DNA of 64,000 nucleotides from Lachnospiraceae bacterium (GCA_017442585.1 JAFRZM010000053.1:27012-91011), one strand, 5' to 3'. Counted from the stretch's first letter, positions 3,727-56,065 are shown. Program-made: numbers and translations. Notes: generated from the letters alone by a model not told the origin.

Positions 3727-6312
3727 ATGAACATACAGAAATTTACGCAAAAATCGATAGAAGCTTTAAATGAGTGCGAAAGACTGGCGAATGAATACGG
3801 CAATCAGTATATGGATTGCGAGCATTTATTATATGCGCTTTTGACTCAGGAAGAGGGAATATTGCCGCGTCTTTTGGAAAAGATGGAGGTAAATGTGCCT
3901 GATTTTATAGGTGCGGTAGAAGGAAAGCTTTCAGCCTACACAAAGGTTTCGGGCGGTGATACAAATTATTACACAAGAGAGCTTAATAAGACATTGGTTG
4001 AAGCTGAGACCGAAGCCAAGAAAATGGGCGATTCCTATGTATCCGTAGAGCATATATTCTTATCATTATTGAGAAATGCGAATAAGCAGGTTAAGGGATT
4101 ATTTAAAGATTTCGGTATAAATAAAGACGGATTCTTGAAAGCCTTGATGACAGTAAGGGGCAACAGACAAGTTAATACCGATAACCCTGAAGGCACATAC
4201 GATACGTTGGAAAAGTACGGATACGATATGGTCTCCCGTGCAAAAGAGCAGAAGCTGGATCCTGTAATAGGCCGAGATGCAGAGATTAGAAACCTCGTAC
4301 GCATCCTTTCAAGAAAGACCAAGAATAACCCTGTATTAATAGGTGAGCCGGGCGTAGGTAAAACCGCCGTAGTAGAGGGTTTGGCACAGCGTATCGCCAG
4401 AGGCGACGTGCCCGGAGGCCTTGAAGATAAGCGCCTTTTTGCGCTTGATATGGGAGCGCTGATTGCGGGTGCAAAATACCGTGGTGAATTCGAGGAACGT
4501 TTAAAGGCCGTACTTGATGATATTAAGGCATCTGACGGCGAGATCATTTTATTTATAGATGAGTTACATACGATAGTGGGCGCCGGTAAGACGGAAGGCT
4601 CGATGGATGCGGGAAACCTCTTAAAGCCTATGCTTGCCAGAGGCGAGCTTCATTGTATCGGAGCAACGACTCTTGATGAATATAGAAAGTATATAGAAAA
4701 GGATGCGGCGCTCGAACGTCGTTTCCAGCCGGTTATGGTATCCGAGCCTACCGTAGAAGATACGATATCAATCCTTCGTGGCTTGAAAGAACGTTACGAA
4801 GTATTCCACGGCGTAAAGATTACGGACGGCGCATTGGTATCGGCAGCAGTTTTGTCAAACCGCTATATCTCTGACAGATTTCTTCCTGATAAGGCGATAG
4901 ACCTTGTGGATGAGGCCTGTGCGCTTATAAAGACAGAACTTAACTCGATGCCAGGAAGCCTTGATGAACTTAACCGTAAAATCATGCAGCTTGAAATAGA
5001 GGAGATGGCATTAAAGAAGGAAGAAGATTCCTTAAGCCGCCAGCGTCTTAAAGACTTAACTGATGAACTTGCTGCACTCAGAGAGGAATTTGCGAAGGGC
5101 AAGATTCAGTGGGATATGGAAAAAGCTGCAATTGATAAGGTTACGGCACTTCGTGAAAGAATCGATAAGGTTCGTTCTGATATAGAAAAAGCCAAGAGTG
5201 AATATAACCTTGAAGAAGTGGCAAGACTTCAGTATGGTGAGTTGCCGAATCTTCAGAAGGAACTTGAAGAGGAAGAGGCAGTTATAGCAAAGAATGAAGT
5301 TCCGCTTGCGCATGAAAGCGTTTCGGAAGAAGAGATAGCGCATATAATCTCCAAGTGGACAGGAATTCCTGTTGAAAAGCTTAACGAATCTGAGAGAAGT
5401 AAGATTTTAAACCTTGACTCCGAGCTTCATAAGCGTGTAATCGGTCAGGACGAGGGCGTAACAAGAGTTACCGAAGCAATCCTTCGTTCCAAAGCAGGTA
5501 TAAAGGACGAGAGTAAACCTATTGGTTCATTTCTTTTCCTTGGTCCTACAGGTGTAGGTAAAACCGAGCTCGCGAAGGCTTTGGCTAAGGCGTTATTCGA
5601 TGATGAGTCAAGTATGGTACGCCTTGATATGAGTGAGTATATGGAGAAATTCTCCGTATCGAGACTCATCGGAGCGCCTCCGGGATACGTAGGATACGAT
5701 GAAGGTGGACAACTTACGGAAGCCGTACGTAGAAAACCTTATTCCGTAGTTCTTTTCGATGAAGTGGAAAAAGCGCATCCTGATGTATTTAATACCCTTT
5801 TACAGGTATTGGACGATGGACGTATCACCGATTCTCAAGGAAGAACGGTAGATTTTAAAAACACTATAATCATAATGACTTCAAACCTTGGTTCCGATGC
5901 ACTTTTATCGGGTATCGATGAAAACGGAGAGATAACCGATAAAGCTAAAGAGGAAGTTATGAATATGGTTCATATGAATTTCAGACCGGAGTTTATTAAC
6001 CGACTTGATGAAATCATAATGTTTAAACCACTTAATATCGGTGAAATCGGTAAGATTGTAGACTTAATCGTAACAGAGATTAATAAGCGTATCGAAAATA
6101 AAGAATTATCGGTTAAGCTTACGGATGAAGCTAAAGAATTTATCGTCGAAAACGGCTTCGATCCGTTATATGGTGCAAGACCGCTTAGACGATATATTCA
6201 AAAGAACGTAGAGACGTTGGCAGCAAAGCTTATCTTACAGGATGAAGTACGCCAGGGTGATACGATACTTGTGAAAGTAGAAGACGGTCACTTAAAGGCT
6301 GTACGAGAGTAA
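3727..6312 (+). CDS. clpB: ATP-dependent chaperone ClpB
   Basis: Two AAA+ modules (GEPGVGKT, GPTGVGKT), middle coiled-coil domain, IDLVDEA, GARPLRR; start set at ATG 3727 after a purine-rich SD (MNIQKFTQKS). Confidence 0.98.
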   Translation: MNIQKFTQKSIEALNECERLANEYGNQYMDCEHLLYALLTQEEGILPRLLEKMEVNVPDFIGAVEGKLSAYTKVSGGDTNYYTRELNKTLVEAETEAKKMGDSYVSVEHIFLSLLRNANKQVKGLFKDFGINKDGFLKALMTVRGNRQVNTDNPEGTYDTLEKYGYDMVSRAKEQKLDPVIGRDAEIRNLVRILSRKTKNNPVLIGEPGVGKTAVVEGLAQRIARGDVPGGLEDKRLFALDMGALIAGAKYRGEFEERLKAVLDDIKASDGEIILFIDELHTIVGAGKTEGSMDAGNLLKPMLARGELHCIGATTLDEYRKYIEKDAALERRFQPVMVSEPTVEDTISILRGLKERYEVFHGVKITDGALVSAAVLSNRYISDRFLPDKAIDLVDEACALIKTELNSMPGSLDELNRKIMQLEIEEMALKKEEDSLSRQRLKDLTDELAALREEFAKGKIQWDMEKAAIDKVTALRERIDKVRSDIEKAKSEYNLEEVARLQYGELPNLQKELEEEEAVIAKNEVPLAHESVSEEEIAHIISKWTGIPVEKLNESERSKILNLDSELHKRVIGQDEGVTRVTEAILRSKAGIKDESKPIGSFLFLGPTGVGKTELAKALAKALFDDESSMVRLDMSEYMEKFSVSRLIGAPPGYVGYDEGGQLTEAVRRKPYSVVLFDEVEKAHPDVFNTLLQVLDDGRITDSQGRTVDFKNTIIIMTSNLGSDALLSGIDENGEITDKAKEEVMNMVHMNFRPEFINRLDEIIMFKPLNIGEIGKIVDLIVTEINKRIENKELSVKLTDEAKEFIVENGFDPLYGARPLRRYIQKNVETLAAKLILQDEVRQGDTILVKVEDGHLKAVRE

Positions 6313-7829: not shown

Positions 7830-7930
7830 CTCTTATTCAGAGTGGTGGAGGTACATAGGACCTATGAAGCCACGGCAACCCCGGGGATCCGGAAGGTGCC
7901 TTTCCTGAGCGATTTATCGAACAATAAGAG
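7830..7930 (+). promoter_or_regulatory. SAM-I (S-box) riboswitch aptamer
   Basis: P1 CTCTTATT/AATAAGAG; conserved AGAGTGGTGGAGG, GGCAACC and AAGGTGCC blocks; directly upstream of metK. Confidence 0.92.
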
Positions 7931-25735: not shown

Positions 25736-25873
25736 ATTCTAGGGGGATGAGCGAATTAGAGTTTAATAATTTCCTGAAAGTATTAGGTAAATAAAATGGT
25801 TTTGAAAGAGAAGACTGTTAGGAGGTGCCTGCGGTCTTTGCATTCGAATAAAGGGATAGTTGATGTAGGTATA

Positions 25874-26056
25874 AATCGGCGGGGAAGAAAAGTTTAACGA
25901 AGTGACCATAGCGAAGTGAGCGTCGTGGCGCAGTGCGATGCGCGGCAACCAAGCCCACTGTTTGAGCGAAGCGAGTTTGGGCGACTTGCCGCAATTGGCG
26001 AGCGCGAGCCACAGAGAACGAGCGTGTCACGAGTAAACTTTTCTTTCCTGCCGATT
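25874..26056. repeat. ~183-bp rod-like palindromic element (element 1)
   Basis: Imperfect terminal arms AATCGGCGGGGAAGAAAAGTTTA/TAAACTTTTCTTTCCTGCCGATT; nested stems GTGAC/GTCAC, GTGGC/GCCAC, GCGGCAA/TTGCCGC, GCCCA/TGGGC; GCGAAGC at 25966-25972. Confidence 0.8.
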
Positions 26057-26179
26057 CTATATTTGTTCCATTTTATAAAAATTTTATAATTCGTTCGAGT
26101 TAAAAGCCCGAAAATAGGCCGATTTTAGAAAAATTTAATTAGGACGTGCTTGTGGTTTTGCAATTGGCAATAAGGACAA

Positions 26180-26264
26180 CAAAAAAGCTAAGTAACCGCC
26201 CGCTCAAAAGTGTGTTACTTAGCTAACCACCGAGGGCAACCGTTTATCGGTAGCACCTTTTGTT
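26180..26264 (-). ncRNA. Candidate ~85-nt small RNA (ends approximate)
   Basis: Bounded by a consensus promoter and an 11-bp stem terminator (AGCTAAGTAAC/GTTACTTAGCT, 26186-26224) followed by Ts on the minus strand; no ORF; internal hairpin ACCGA/TCGGT. Confidence 0.7.
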
Positions 26265-53295: not shown

Positions 53296-53329
53296 AGCCG
53301 AGGGCGTTATGTCCTCGGCTTTTCTTTTT
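53296..53329 (+). terminator. Terminator after hpf
   Basis: AGCCGAGG/CCTCGGCT stem followed by Ts. Confidence 0.8.
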
Positions 53330-53374
53330 GAGGCAAAAGTTAGAAGGGGTAGAATAAGAAAGGCGTTAGGTTTT

Positions 53375-54265
53375 ATGAAGATAGCATTAATCGTTATAGC
53401 AGTAATAATTGTACTTATAATCTTGGGCGCGGTAGGATTTTATATATTCATAACACATCCGAAGCTCGTAAGCCATGAAGAGGCGCGTAAAATTGAAGAC
53501 AGTAAAGACTTTACGGTCGGATATGATGACTGGGAAAAGCAGGAATTAAACCTTACCATGTCCGACGGGTACGTACTTCACGGCGTATACATACCTTACG
53601 AAGGTAGCAATAAGTATGTCATTATAACTCACGGCTATACGTACAACTATGAGGGAAGCATAAAGTATGCACAAGTATTCCGCGCATTGGGCTATAACAT
53701 ATATATGTATGACATAAGACATCACGGTTACAATAAGAAGATGTATTGCTCGATGGGCAGAAACGAGAGCCGTGATGTGGTTGAAGTATATAATCATTTC
53801 AGGCAAAAGTTCGGATCAGAAGTGGAAATCGGACTTCACGGAGAAAGCCTTGGCGCAGCATCTACGATAATGGCGTTAAAGGATATAAAAGATGCAAATT
53901 TCGTTGTCGCAGATTGCGGATTCAGTGACTTTAAGAGCTTGGCACAGTATCTTGCGTCATCCTGGATGCATCTGCCAAAGTGGTTCTTTACGTTTCCGGT
54001 AATCGTGTGCGTAATCTTGCATCAGTTCCGTTTAGATAAGATACGCCCAATCGATTCATTAGCCGTAAACACGACAACCCCGTGCCTATTTATCCACGGC
54101 GAAGACGATACCTTTATTCCTAAAACCCACGCCGAAGCCTTCTTTGCAGCATGTAAATCCAAGAAGCAACTCGTGTTATTCCCTAAGGCCAACCACGCTG
54201 AAAGTTATGTTTCTGATCGTAAACGATATAAGGATATTGTTGAACAGTTTTTGAGTGAACTATAG
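53375..54265 (+). CDS. Membrane-anchored alpha/beta hydrolase
   Basis: N-terminal TM, HG, nucleophile GESLG, HGEDD, HAES; ATG 53375. Confidence 0.9.
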   Translation: MKIALIVIAVIIVLIILGAVGFYIFITHPKLVSHEEARKIEDSKDFTVGYDDWEKQELNLTMSDGYVLHGVYIPYEGSNKYVIITHGYTYNYEGSIKYAQVFRALGYNIYMYDIRHHGYNKKMYCSMGRNESRDVVEVYNHFRQKFGSEVEIGLHGESLGAASTIMALKDIKDANFVVADCGFSDFKSLAQYLASSWMHLPKWFFTFPVIVCVILHQFRLDKIRPIDSLAVNTTTPCLFIHGEDDTFIPKTHAEAFFAACKSKKQLVLFPKANHAESYVSDRKRYKDIVEQFLSEL

Positions 54266-54271
54266 TAATAT

Positions 54272-54460
54272 GAAAAATCCAAGTATAAAAGTTCTCGTGA
54301 CTGCGGGATTTCTGCTTCTCGCGCTCCACCCTATAGAGACGTCTCCGGCGGAACTTGCTGCTTCGCAGCTTCGGACATCGCCTCCAACGTCTCGGCTCTG
54401 CACTCGAAGTGGCGAAATCTTCCGCAAGTGTCACTCGATTCTTTTATACTTGGATTTTTC
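54272..54460. repeat. ~189-bp rod-like palindromic element (element 2)
   Basis: Perfect 20-bp terminal inverted repeat GAAAAATCCAAGTATAAAAG; nested stems; apical GCTGC-ttc-GCAGC (GCGAAGC on the minus strand, 54360-54366). Confidence 0.85.
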
Positions 54461-54471
54461 CGTAGACTACA

Positions 54472-54603
54472 GAATCGGCGAAAATAATGCAGATGAGCGG
54501 CAATTTGGAACGTCGTTACTTGGCGAGCAGTTATGCGAGCTTAGTAACGCGACGTTACAAGATTGAGTGCGAACGTCCGCGAACTGCATTGTTTCGTCGA
54601 TTC
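54472..54603. repeat. ~132-bp palindromic element (element 3), 11 bp from element 2
   Basis: GAATCGGCGAAA/TTTCGTCGATTC ends; AATGCAG/CTGCATT, AACGTCG/CGACGTT and GTTACT/AGTAAC stems. Confidence 0.75.
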
Positions 54604-54610
54604 GTGATAT

Positions 54611-54639
54611 TTGAAAATACTTATAAATAGTGATACAAT
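54611..54639 (+). promoter_or_regulatory. Sigma-A promoter of the MATE gene
   Basis: TTGAAA, 17 bp, TACAAT with an extended TG; the ORF track's TTG start at 54611 is probably this -35. Confidence 0.65.
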
Positions 54640-54676
54640 AATCTGGTTACGGGATTGGATATTTAGGGAGAAACAT

Positions 54677-56065
54677 ATGGATATATCTAAAGTTAACGGC
54701 AAGCGTGCCATGATAGTGTTAATCGCGACTCTTGCCTGGCCGACTATATTAGAACAACTCTTGCAAACAATAGTTGTTTACGCAGATACCGCAATGGTAG
54801 GCGCACTCGGTAAAGAAGCATCCGCCGCGGTAGGCTTAATTACACCCGTTACCTGGCTCACAAACGCCCCGGCCTTTTCCTTAGGCATCGGAGTTATGGC
54901 ATTTATAGCAAGGAAGAACGGCGCAGGAGACTACAAAGATTTAAAGAAAGCATCAGTTCAGGGCATATACTTAAGTATTATAGTAGGTCTTATCATAGGA
55001 ATCGTCATGATGGGATTAAGCTCTAACCTTCCGTACTGGATGGGTGGCGAAGGCAATGTCGCAAGAGATGCGGGTAAGTATCTTTTAATAACCGGAGCAG
55101 GCTTTTTATTTAGATCTCTAGACATGGTAATAGGATGTACCATAAGAGGAGTCGGAGATACAAGAACACCGATGATAGTAAACCTTTTAATGAACATAGT
55201 TAACATCATCGGCAACTTTTTCTTTATATATGAGACAAGATACATTACAATCGGCACTATTTCTTTTAAAGTGTTCGGTGCAGGATACGGCGTTGCGGGA
55301 GCAGCCTTAGGAACTACGGTTTCGGCGCTTTTCGGCGGTATCGTAATGCTTATCGTACTTTGGAAGAATGATAAGCTTTCGCCTCACGGAGAATCAAAAA
55401 GAGTCGACCGTCACATAATGTATCAGTGTGTAAGAGTCGGCGTGCCGCTTGCGTTACAGCGTATCGTTGTATTTACGGGATACGTGGTATTCGTGGCAGA
55501 AGTTGCAGACCTTGGAACAGTGCTTCTTGCAGCACACTCAATCGCGATAACCGCGGAAGAAATGGTCTACATACCGGGATTCGGCATGCAGGATGCGGGA
55601 GCTACACTTATCGGTAACGCGATGGGTGCGGGTGATGAGAAGAAGTTGGACAGACTTTCGAAGATGCTCATACTTATTACTGTCGGCATAATGACAATAA
55701 CGGGAGGCCTTTTATTTGCGTTCCCGGGACAGGTAATGAGTATCTTTACAAAGGATGCCGAAGTTATAAGAAACGGTATCGTAGTTTTAAGAATGGTTGC
55801 GGTATCAGAGCCGATATACGGTGCACTTATAATGATGGAAGGTATCTTTAACGGAGTAGGTAACACCAAGACTACATTTATCGTAGGCGTTACCACGATG
55901 TGGATAGTGCGCGTCCTTATGACGTACATTTGTATACATGTATTCCACCTGGGCCTTGTTGCCGTATGGTCGTGCATGATAGCAGAAAATGTCACAAAGG
56001 CTACGATTATCGGAATCCTTTATTTAAAGGGTGTATGGAAGAAAGGCGCTGTTAGATACAGTTAA
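54677..56065 (+). CDS. MATE-family efflux transporter
   Basis: About 12 TMs, LAWP..LEQ, DTAMVG.LG, RGVGDTRTP, GVAGAA; AGGGAG SD before ATG 54677. Confidence 0.92.
   Translation: MDISKVNGKRAMIVLIATLAWPTILEQLLQTIVVYADTAMVGALGKEASAAVGLITPVTWLTNAPAFSLGIGVMAFIARKNGAGDYKDLKKASVQGIYLSIIVGLIIGIVMMGLSSNLPYWMGGEGNVARDAGKYLLITGAGFLFRSLDMVIGCTIRGVGDTRTPMIVNLLMNIVNIIGNFFFIYETRYITIGTISFKVFGAGYGVAGAALGTTVSALFGGIVMLIVLWKNDKLSPHGESKRVDRHIMYQCVRVGVPLALQRIVVFTGYVVFVAEVADLGTVLLAAHSIAITAEEMVYIPGFGMQDAGATLIGNAMGAGDEKKLDRLSKMLILITVGIMTITGGLLFAFPGQVMSIFTKDAEVIRNGIVVLRMVAVSEPIYGALIMMEGIFNGVGNTKTTFIVGVTTMWIVRVLMTYICIHVFHLGLVAVWSCMIAENVTKATIIGILYLKGVWKKGAVRYS

What the first reader, a model, noticed from the sequence alone, without database searches (positions are those of the whole stretch)
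25874..26056. Palindromic element 1: member of a ~185-bp rod-shaped family with conserved sequence blocks and a GCGAAGC apex
Seen: elements 1 (25874-26056) and 2 (54272-54460, read on the minus strand) have different terminal arms but similar length, a central GCGAAGC, and the same ordered blocks: AAAAG..CG(A)AGTGAC, AGTGC, GAGCGCGAG, CAGA.AA, GTCACGAG(T)AA(A)CTTTT. Established: d(GCGAAGC) forms an unusually stable single-stranded mini-hairpin; REP/BIME palindromes are substrates of HUH tyrosine transposases (RAYT). Inference: a dispersed non-autonomous repeat or structured RNA family, possibly mobilised in trans by an HUH enzyme; none is encoded in this window. Caveat: GCTTCGC also caps the hup terminator, so the apex alone is not diagnostic.
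Basis: partly seen in the sequence, partly recalled or inferred. Interest (0 to 1): 0.7.

Follow-up and report, generated by a model that had tools for sequence, protein, structure and literature searches.

The report
Cross-phylum long-hairpin repeat with conserved tip
The two ~190-base hairpin elements are real copies of a small repeat family in this rumen bacterium, and their 18-base hairpin tip also caps otherwise unrelated hairpins in many bacterial phyla. The family matches no catalogued RNA or repeat family, and the factor that acts on it is unknown.

Summary
Element 1 (25866-26066, +) and element 2 (54266-54466, read on -) fold as long rods (z -6.3 and -9.0) and share the listed blocks.

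In this genome:
- There is a third close copy (C18), a divergent copy (C31) and two solo 3' boxes.
- A second family of five copies has the same design.

The homologous unit of element 1 is 25901-26033. The outer arms evolve faster but are related between copies, so they belong to the element.

Beyond this genome:
- The exact tip GTTTGAGCGAAGCGAGTT occurs at 120 or more loci, against about 17 expected by chance.
- Carriers include Lachnospiraceae, Bacteroidota, Betaproteobacteria, CPR and Nitrospirota. The tip is almost always flanked by complementary arms.

Structure:
- Stems covary strongly (0 of 500 shuffles).
- Only one strand carries the structure: G.A 182 versus C.T 36, G.U 199 versus 64, and sense more stable in 50 of 52 rods.
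- Orientation to neighbouring genes is random, and elements 1 and 2 have no promoter of their own.

There is no Rfam match, no phage or plasmid link, and no Y1/HUH transposase in this genome.

Best reading (about 45%): a non-autonomous repeat selected as a folded single strand, probably ssDNA, with an unknown trans-acting factor. Main rival: a structured RNA.

The parts
25866..26066 (+).
   Evidence: RNA MFE -90.4 kcal/mol, z -6.3. The sense strand gives -90.3 against -67.0 for the antisense strand.
25901..26033 (+). Conserved core of element 1 (AGTGAC...GTCACGAG). This is the unit shared with other copies.
   Evidence: Independent metagenome contigs match exactly this span and then run on into different flanks. 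It is 89% identical to the copy at C18:1567-1694.
25960..25977 (+). Tip GTTTGAGCGAAGCGAGTT. It is a mirror repeat, GAGCGA|AGCGAG, around the mini-hairpin GCGAAGC (25966-25972).
   Evidence: The exact 18-mer occurs at 120 or more loci of genome contigs in many phyla. Complementary arms flank it at about 97 of 111 evaluable sites.
25898..25922 (+). 5' box CGAAGTGACCATAGCGAAGTGAGCG (G/A-rich internal-loop strand)
   Evidence: Shared with the C18 copy.
26016..26033 (+). 3' box GAACGAGCGTGTCACGAG
   Evidence: Shared with the C18 copy. It also occurs alone at C40:4433 and C41:27585, directly after stop codons. It is retained in a half-element of a related strain.
25874..25896 (+). Outer 5' arm of element 1 (purine-rich)
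   Evidence: Pairs with 26034-26056 at 91%. Both mismatches are G.T on the sense strand. Related arms (AATCGGCGsGGAAGArArG..TTAACGAAGT) appear on other copies in metagenomes.
26034..26056 (+). Outer 3' arm of element 1
   Evidence: A related arm, AGTAAACTTTTCTTTTCCGCCGATTC, appears in run X13.
54266..54466 (-). Its sense strand is the minus strand, antisense to both neighbouring genes.
   Evidence: MFE -93.8 kcal/mol, z -9.0. Sense -87.4 against antisense -77.4. The flanking ORFs 53309-54265 and 54611-56065 are both on +. The two closest congeners (G007, G005) have only ~100 nt with no rod between the same two genes.
54360..54366 (-). GCGAAGC apex of element 2, within GCTGCGAAGCAGC
54472..54603 (+). 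Element 3, a member of a second rod family (B) with the same design. Its apex holds two GCGAGC repeats.
   Evidence: Five copies in the genome share an identical ~85-nt core, and their arms differ. There are 3-5 G.U pairs on the sense strand and 0 on the antisense strand in all five copies.

Best explanation
Elements 1 and 2 are copies of a non-autonomous, hairpin-shaped repeat element. It belongs to a large, apparently uncatalogued superfamily whose conserved part is the hairpin tip (GTTTGAGCGAAGCGAGTT) and a few G/A-rich internal loops. The stems are free to change as long as they stay paired.

Shown:
- The family is multi-copy.
- It is gained and lost between relatives.
- Its stems covary.
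- Selection acts on one strand only, the strand that carries GCGAAGC and the G.A mismatches.
- It sits in either orientation relative to neighbouring genes.

Inferred:
- The selected form is a folded single strand, most likely single-stranded DNA exposed during replication or during the element's own copying. An unknown trans-acting protein would recognise it by its tip and loops and copy or move the whole rod.
- Arm-to-arm correction within the hairpin, or frequent replacement by paralogues, keeps the stems complementary while they diverge.
- Effects on the host, such as a stable hairpin in the 3' UTR when transcribed in sense, would be secondary.
For: Copies. Three to four family-A copies plus two solo 3' boxes, and five family-B copies, lie in 1.7 Mb. 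Many more copies occur in independent rumen metagenome runs, each with its own flanks.

Gain and loss:
- The hydrolase-MATE spacer holds elements 2 and 3 in this genome. The two closest congeners (G007, G005) have only about 100 nt there and no rod.
- A strain about 90% identical (run X23) has only the 3' part of the rod at two loci.
- Synteny breaks exactly at the left base of element 1.
- At one orthologous Variovorax locus, three species carry a (+) unit, a (-) unit and a (-,+) pair.

Structure is selected:
- In the core, element 1 versus C18 shows 4 double compensations, 3 single compatible changes and 2 breaks.
- In 22 betaproteobacterial units, 93.6% of cells are paired and 15 of 28 pairs show double changes. 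No shuffle of 500 reaches the observed value on any measure, and the slid controls give 30-48% paired.

One strand only:
- Mismatches G:A + A:G number 182 against C:T + T:C 36. Bulges number 415 in the 5' arm against 139 in the 3' arm.
- The sense strand is more stable in 50 of 52 rods with RNA parameters and 48 of 52 with DNA parameters.
- G.U pairs number 199 on the sense strand against 64 on the antisense strand.

DNA rather than RNA:
- d(GCGAAGC) melts at 76.5 C, whereas r(GCGAAAGC) melts at 39 C. Such mini-hairpins mark ssDNA priming origins and hairpin promoters (PMC13037366).
- Orientation to neighbours is mixed: 9 (+,+), 12 (-,-), 7 (+,-), 7 (-,+).
- There is no promoter on the sense strand of element 1 or 2, and element 2 is antisense to both neighbours.
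- Compensations are mostly full Watson-Crick swaps (64 cells), with few one-sided intermediates.
- Relatives hold near-perfect palindromes of 240-610 nt.
- Units often form (-,+) inverted pairs, as REPINs do.
Against: - No enzyme was identified. There is no Y1_Tnp in this genome, no rods around Y1 genes in the three other carrier genomes checked, and no recurrent neighbouring gene across 120 loci.
- No target-site duplication or conserved termini were seen.
- No clean empty site was recovered. The 'half' alleles could be deletions.
- No replication-strand bias is visible in the few complete genomes looked at (the origin was assumed, not determined).
- The 3:1 excess of G.U pairs on the sense strand, the polar unit layout in Bacteroidota and Betaproteobacteria (5' box, rod, 3' box, 3' hairpins) and the solo 3' boxes lying in sense between stop codon and terminator fit an RNA equally well.
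- No transposition event has been observed.
Confidence: 0.45

Rival explanations
1. It is a family of structured non-coding RNAs, or cis-acting RNA modules in UTRs. The rod with its conserved tip and G.A-rich loops would bind a widely conserved RNA-binding factor or resist or direct RNases. The DNA copies would be paralogous RNA genes spread by recombination.
For: - Strong covariation.
- Sense-strand excess of G.U pairs, 199 against 64.
- The sense strand is 9.6 kcal/mol more stable on average with RNA parameters.
- All three mismatches in the outer arms of the local copies are G.T on the sense strand.
- The unit layout has a polarity and ends in 3' hairpins in other phyla.
- The solo 3' boxes lie in sense between stop codon and terminator.
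- The tip can form tandem sheared G.A pairs like a K-loop (read from the sequence; inference).
- A contig of 154 nt in one Xanthomonas RNA run covers a tip (weak).
Against: - Orientation to neighbours is random, and elements 1 and 2 have no promoter of their own. Element 2 can only be transcribed in antisense.
- A GAA triloop on a C-G pair is optimal for DNA, not RNA.
- Perfect helices of 100-300 bp in relatives would be RNase III substrates.
- One-sided (wobble) intermediates are few compared with full swaps.
- There is no Rfam match.
- The expression data obtained were uninformative.
Confidence: 0.3
2. The rods serve the host as gene-end hairpins, acting as bidirectional terminators, insulators or mRNA stabilisers. 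They spread by duplication. The tip is simply the most stable way to nucleate a hairpin.
For: - They lie in intergenic spacers at gene ends. Element 2 starts 7 nt after a stop codon and has A5/T5 at its base.
- Comparable roles are known for REP, ERIC and Correia elements (own knowledge).
Against: - An 18-nt asymmetric tip that is identical across phyla is not explained by stability alone. The heptamer alone is not enriched.
- Element 1 and the C18 copy lie downstream of ordinary terminators.
- The terminator scan calls neither rod; its one hit (54293-54308) is a short internal stem inside element 2.
- Congeners lack the rods at the same locus.
- The strand asymmetry is unnecessary for a bidirectional terminator.
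Confidence: 0.1
3. Only the tip module is mobile. It invades the apex of pre-existing hairpins such as terminators, or it makes its own arms by fold-back copying of the local flank.
For: - At first sight the arms look locus-specific while the tip is constant.
- Half-elements retain the 3' arm in a strain that lacks the tip and the 5' arm.
- Earlier notes of this scan raised the idea.
Against: - The outer arms of different copies in the same lineage are related to each other: AATCGGCG.GGAAGA..., and TGTATATTCTATGCCA shared by C22 and C23.
- The arms are purine-rich and compositionally unlike ordinary flanks.
- The half-elements also contain part of the conserved core, so they look like truncated elements rather than naive targets.
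- Conserved non-complementary loops would be erased by fold-back copying.
Confidence: 0.08
4. It is an assembly or library artefact, either a hairpin adapter or a chimeric palindrome.
For: Palindromes with a constant centre are what missed hairpin adapters produce (own knowledge).
Against: - The same elements occur in independent runs and studies.
- They occur in complete chromosomes of cultured isolates of several phyla.
- They contain conserved non-complementary loops and covarying stems.
Confidence: 0.01

Closest known systems
REP / BIME sequences and REPINs mobilised by RAYT (TnpA-REP, HUH Y1) nucleases
   Same: Both are multi-copy extragenic palindromes that act as folded single strands with strand-specific recognition. 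In other phyla the units are often arranged as inverted pairs. Both are non-autonomous.
   Different: These rods are 130-200 nt or more, against 20-40 nt for REPs. There is no GTAG-type 5' head. The conserved part is the tip, and it is shared across phyla, whereas REPs are lineage-specific. No Y1 gene is present in this genome, and no Y1 gene checked in three other carrier genomes is flanked by the rods.
ERIC / IRU elements of Enterobacteria (and similar long-hairpin MITEs: Neisseria Correia, pneumococcal RUP/BOX)
   Same: Both are rods of about 130-190 nt in intergenic DNA with G/A-rich internal loops of the (A)GTGAG / GAGCGAAC type. The E. coli copy I folded gives -73.7 kcal/mol. Both are present or absent between strains.
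   Different: ERIC has conserved termini and a different tip (GCTTACATAAGTAAG). Element 1 has no BLAST match in 5,426 E. coli genomes. Here the ends vary and the tip is constant. No TA duplication was seen.
ssDNA mini-hairpin signals: G4-type and ssiA priming origins, phage N4 hairpin promoters
   Same: They use the same d(GCGAAGC)-type mini-hairpin as a recognition or nucleation point on single-stranded DNA (PMC13037366).
   Different: Those are single functional sites on phage or plasmid replicons. These are dispersed chromosomal repeats with long variable stems. Apart from coding coincidences, no phage link was found, and among plasmid records only Ralstonia megaplasmids and one other large replicon matched.
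Integron attC sites
   Same: Both are imperfect palindromes recognised as folded single strands, with structure conserved more than sequence.
   Different: In attC the conserved boxes (R''/R', L''/L') are at the base and the apex is variable. Here it is the reverse. No RYYYAAC...GTTRRRY cores are seen at the ends of elements 1 or 2.

Membership tests
REP/REPIN-RAYT | A RAYT (Y1_Tnp, PF01797) gene in the genome, typically flanked by the repeats | tested here: not met
   No PF01797 match in G000, which is 92% complete. In three other carrier genomes (G062-G064) the Y1 genes have no tips or rods beside them.
REP/REPIN-RAYT | A short (20-40 nt) imperfect palindrome with a conserved 5' tetranucleotide head (GTAG-like), in high copy number | tested here: not met
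   The rods are 130-200 nt with variable ends and number 4-11 per genome here.
REP/REPIN-RAYT | Inverted doublets forming a larger hairpin | tested here: inconclusive
   (-,+) pairs are common in Parabacteroides and Variovorax. The copies in this window are singles. Elements 2 and 3 are adjacent but belong to different families.
ERIC/IRU | Sequence homology to the ~127-bp ERIC consensus, including its conserved termini | tested here: not met
   Element 1's core has no match in 5,426 E. coli genomes, all of which carry ERIC. The tip and the ends differ.
Classical MITE | Conserved terminal inverted repeats and a target-site duplication | tested here: not met
   The termini differ between copies, and no direct repeat abuts the rods.
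Rfam families (Clostridiales-1, 6S, others) | A covariance-model match at the gathering score | tested here: not met
   The window has no hit at gathering score other than a SAM riboswitch. There is no hit with E <= 10 on either element. Fifteen loci from other phyla give only Flavo-1 hits, near but not on the rod.
Integron attC | R''/L''...L'/R' boxes at the base of the hairpin, with a variable apex | tested here: not met
   The architecture is the opposite: conserved apex, variable base.
Cross-phylum tip-defined hairpin repeat (uncatalogued; named here only for reference) | Tip GTYTGAGCGAAGCGAGTT flanked by complementary arms, with G.A-rich loops on the same strand | tested here: met
   Element 1 and the C18 copy carry the exact tip. 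C31 has one mismatch. Element 2 has a degenerate tip. About 97 of 111 evaluable sites with the exact tip in other genomes have arms.

The most novel reading that the evidence does not exclude
The 18-20-nt tip (a mirror repeat, GAGCGA|AGCGAG, around a GCGAAGC mini-hairpin) is the recognition module of an undescribed system that is shared from CPR bacteria to Proteobacteria, Bacteroidota and Firmicutes. Two forms are possible. One is a mobilisation or priming machinery that needs no transposase or uses a new one, acts on folded single-stranded DNA, and keeps the two arms complementary by copying one from the other. The other is a new, very widespread class of rod-shaped RNA.
Probability: 0.3. 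Interest if true: 0.85.

Novelty: new variant of a known kind. Interest (0 to 1): 0.62.

Why it matters
Bacterial repeat families (REP, ERIC, MITEs) are thought to be lineage-specific and defined by their ends. This family is defined by its hairpin tip, which is identical in distant phyla while everything else changes. That implies a conserved partner or process that reads a folded single strand. Identifying that partner could reveal a new route of DNA mobility or priming, or a new RNA class.

In practical terms, these rods break short-read assemblies. They also mark hot spots of rearrangement: here a synteny break and strain-specific indels lie exactly at their bases.

Tried and rejected
- Rfam at gathering score and at E <= 10: nothing on either element.
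- BLAST of the core against E. coli genomes, phages and plasmids: only tip-sized hits on Ralstonia megaplasmids and one other large replicon.
- Arms as captured foreign DNA: a 146-nt arm has no phage match.
- IMG/VR: of 60 hits to the tip, 42 are a coding coincidence (NSLRSN in an apparent phage replication-initiator gene; my reading of the translations, no family search run), not rods.
- Linked enzyme: all-against-all clustering of ORFs within 3 kb of 180 loci gave no recurrent neighbour outside that phage gene set. Y1_Tnp is absent from this genome and not adjacent in three other carriers checked. The only reverse transcriptase in the genome looks like a group II intron maturase-type ORF (my reading of its sequence and the RVT_1 hit).
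- Replication-strand bias: none is obvious in Parabacteroides or Nitrospirales chromosomes (the origin was assumed).
- RNA evidence: Logan contigs of Xanthomonas RNA runs and of sheep 'RNA' runs were uninformative. A Ralstonia locus could not be sent to the run index.
- Metagenome scan for the 25-nt 3' box: no hit.
- MAFFT/RNAalifold on six divergent local and related rods failed to align the stems, so covariation was measured on a better-behaved betaproteobacterial subset.
- Literature: the tip sequence appears only as chance primer strings. No paper describing the family was found.

Full report
**Observation**

Element 1 and element 2 exist as described.
- Window 25860-26070 (+) folds into a single rod of -90.4 kcal/mol (z -6.3).
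- Window 54260-54475 (-) folds into a rod of -93.8 kcal/mol (z -9.0).
- The terminal inverted repeats are 23 nt (91%) and 20 nt (100%).
- The pairwise alignment shows the ordered blocks AGTGAC, AGTGC, GAGCGCGAG, CAGA and GTCACGAG around a central GCGAAGC.
- GCGAAGC by itself is not over-represented in the window, with 15 found against 9.1 expected.

**The family in this genome**

The window is C33:27012-91011 of a 1.70-Mb assembly of 55 contigs with 39.5% G+C.
- nhmmer and BLAST find a third copy at C18:1537-1721. Its core is 89% identical to element 1.
- A more distant rod at C31:15227-15406 has a tip that differs at one base.
- Two solo copies of the 3' box, AAACGAGCGTGTCAC(G/T)AG, lie directly after stop codons and ahead of ordinary terminators, at C40:4433 and C41:27585.
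- A second family (B) has five copies, including 'element 3' at window 54472-54603. They share an identical ~85-nt core and their arms differ. The apex carries two GCGAGC repeats.
- A further rod at C54:11517-11636 mixes features of both families.
- This small genome therefore holds at least ten such rods.

**Boundaries and arms**

- Contigs from independent cattle, sheep and other gut metagenome runs match element 1 exactly over 25901-26033, and the C18 copy over the equivalent span. They then continue into other sequence. That span is the homologous unit.
- The continuations are not random. The left ones read AATCGGCGCGGAAGAGAGGCTTAACGAAGT, AATAACCCGGCAAGAAAAGGCTAACGAAGT and similar. One right one reads AGTAAACTTTTCTTTTCCGCCGATTC. 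These are clear relatives of element 1's own arms.
- In family B, the C22 and C23 copies share TGTATATTCTATGCCA in their arms.
- The arms are thus part of the element. They evolve faster than the core and stay complementary. They are not copies of the insertion site.

**The tip is conserved across phyla**

- BLAST of the core against 60 relatives hit only the ~20-nt tip, in five genomes of other genera and families. Each hit sits at the apex of an otherwise unrelated rod, and some of these rods are near-perfect palindromes of 240-610 nt.
I calculate that about 17 are expected by chance in 596 Gb.
- Carriers include Lachnospiraceae, other Clostridia, Negativicutes, Bacteroides, Parabacteroides, Flavobacteriia, Variovorax, Ralstonia, Iodobacter, Xanthomonas, Nitrospirales, Acidobacteriota, Elusimicrobia, Melainabacteria and several CPR lineages. 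Complete chromosomes of cultured isolates are among them.
- Of 111 evaluable sites, about 97 have complementary sequence on both sides of the tip.
- Copy numbers reach 32 in one Parabacteroides chromosome, mostly as (-,+) inverted pairs 230-340 nt apart.
- In Bacteroidota and Betaproteobacteria the unit is longer and has a polarity: 5' box, rod, 3' box, then one or two 3' hairpins.

**Selection for structure, on one strand**

- Between element 1 and the C18 copy, the core shows 4 doubly compensated pairs, 3 compatible single changes and 2 breaks.
- For 22 betaproteobacterial units, 93.6% of cells pair and 15 of 28 pairs show changes on both sides. The covariation score is 0.321 against 0.110 in shuffles (0 of 500 reach it), and sliding the partners drops pairing to 30-48%.
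- At one orthologous Variovorax locus (flanks 84-91% identical) the loops, boxes and tip are invariant. About 5 of 18 stem positions per unit differ, and all are compensated.
- The structure belongs to the strand that carries GCGAAGC:
  - purine-purine mismatches G:A + A:G number 182 against 36 C:T + T:C;
  - bulges fall in the 5' arm 415 times against 139 in the 3' arm;
  - that strand folds better in 50 of 52 rods, by 9.6 kcal/mol on average with RNA parameters, and in 48 of 52 with DNA parameters;
  - it carries 199 G.U pairs against 64 on the other strand.
- The local copies behave the same way. Element 1 gives -90.3 against -67.0 kcal/mol. Family B has 3-5 G.U pairs on the sense strand and none on the antisense strand.

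**Context**

- Element 1 lies about 130 nt after the terminator of the upstream gene, in sense. Element 2 starts 7 nt after a stop codon, but its sense strand is antisense to both neighbours.
- Neither element has a promoter-like site on its sense strand.
- Across phyla, orientation relative to neighbours is mixed: 9 (+,+), 12 (-,-), 7 (+,-), 7 (-,+).
- The hydrolase-MATE spacer is about 100 nt and has no rod in the two closest congeners, G007 and G005.
- A sheep-gut strain (X23, about 90-93% identical) lacks element 2 and the left two-thirds of element 3. At the C18 locus it has only AGAGAACGAGCGTGTTACG plus the right outer arm, directly after the gene's terminator.
- Counting the two solo boxes, all four 'half' elements keep the 3' half in sense orientation.
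- In two further runs, colinearity with the window begins exactly at 25868, the left base of element 1.

**Enzymes and vehicles**

- There is no Y1/HUH transposase in this genome. In three other carrier genomes checked, the Y1 genes are not flanked by rods.
- The only reverse transcriptase looks like a group II intron type.
- No gene family recurs next to the rods.
- Phage collections give no real rods, and among plasmid records only Ralstonia megaplasmids and one other large replicon carry them.

**Interpretation**

The data fit a selfish, non-autonomous repeat whose whole rod is copied and which is under selection as a folded single strand.

I favour ssDNA over RNA for these reasons:
- the insertions ignore transcription direction;
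- element 2 cannot be made in sense;
- the tip uses a triloop hairpin that is exceptionally stable as DNA (Tm 76.5 C) but poor as RNA (39 C for r(GCGAAAGC); PMC13037366);
- compensation is mostly by complete Watson-Crick swaps, including CG-to-GC flips that cannot pass through a wobble pair;
- relatives keep near-perfect palindromes hundreds of bases long, which suggests a DNA-level process such as arm-to-arm correction or frequent replacement.

The RNA reading remains a serious rival. It is supported by the 3:1 G.U asymmetry, the polar unit layout and the position of the solo boxes. The consistent retention of 3' halves could mean directional truncation during copying or directional deletion. 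I cannot tell which.

**Comparison with known families**

- In working style it is closest to REP/REPIN and ERIC-type long-hairpin repeats, but it fails the membership tests for both.
- Its architecture is the reverse of attC sites and of MITEs: the apex is conserved and the base is variable.
- It has no Rfam model.
- Searches of the held literature for the tip sequence, and for GCGAAGC with repeat terms, found no description.
- Earlier notes of this scan report the same superfamily in at least 25 other genomes. I treated those as leads and re-derived the main points here.

**Verdict**

This is a real element and a new local subfamily of an uncatalogued, cross-phylum hairpin repeat defined by its tip. 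The mechanism is unresolved.

Noticed in passing
window 25818-25860 and 26140-26182: A direct repeat of ~38-40 nt, about 80% identical over its central part (TTAGGAGGTGCCTGCGGTCTTTGCATTCGAATAAAGGG versus TTAGGACGTGCTTGTGGTTTTGCAATTGGCAATAAGGA), brackets element 1. The right copy starts a small hydrophobic ORF, like a type I toxin, that faces a perfect TTGACA-17-TATAAT promoter on the minus strand (26299-26271). The left copy looks like a truncated duplicate.
   Followed up: partly
G000 C40:31152-31418, C6:555-773 and window ~26200-26260: A repeated module with ends AAAGGTGTTACCGATAGACGGTTGCCCTT...AAGGGCAACCGTC encloses short hairpins. It is probably the same small-RNA/toxin module as the one next to element 1.
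   Followed up: no
G000 C40:4433 and C41:27585: Solo 3' boxes (T)AGAAAACGAGCGTGTCAC(G/T)AGCAAACC begin at the stop codon of two unrelated genes and lie 35-45 nt ahead of the real terminators.
   Followed up: partly
L006:1767-2380 and L012:911-1288 (relatives G032): Near-perfect palindromes of 614 and 378 nt lie next to the tip-bearing rods. They carry a different apex (GAACACATSAYGTGTTC), so several apex families share the same design.
   Followed up: no
G000 C40:59460-59700 and C41:6940-7210: GC-rich clusters of short hairpins carry GAGCGAAGCG-type motifs, and there is another exact GAGCGAAGCGAG at C40:59597. They were not classified.
   Followed up: no
L074:3400-3483 (-) and 4267-4350 (+), Flavobacterium caeni: Two Flavo-1 RNA motifs (Rfam RF01705, 74-76 bits) lie on either side of a tip-bearing rod.
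   Followed up: no
IMG/VR loci L154-L213: In 42 of 60 viral contigs the 18-mer is the coding sequence NSLRSN inside what looks like a lambdoid replication-initiator gene (my reading of the ORFs; no family search run). This is a coincidence amplified by homology, and a warning for pattern-only counts.
   Followed up: yes
window 26057-26146: Strains in runs X8 and X10 replace these 90 nt, just right of element 1, with TTTATGCTT.
   Followed up: no
L144:1141-1677 (Ralstonia solanacearum megaplasmid): In Ralstonia the tip sits in a ~535-nt repeat present 2-13 times per megaplasmid at 85-93% identity across the species complex. In this copy it lies next to an IS3 element.
   Followed up: partly
G000 C10:32-1426: The genome's only reverse transcriptase (PF00078/RVT_1 hit) lies at a contig end. 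By its sequence it looks like a group II intron maturase-type ORF.
   Followed up: no
window 7830-7930: A SAM-I riboswitch (RF00162, 71.9 bits) is the only Rfam hit in the window.
   Followed up: no
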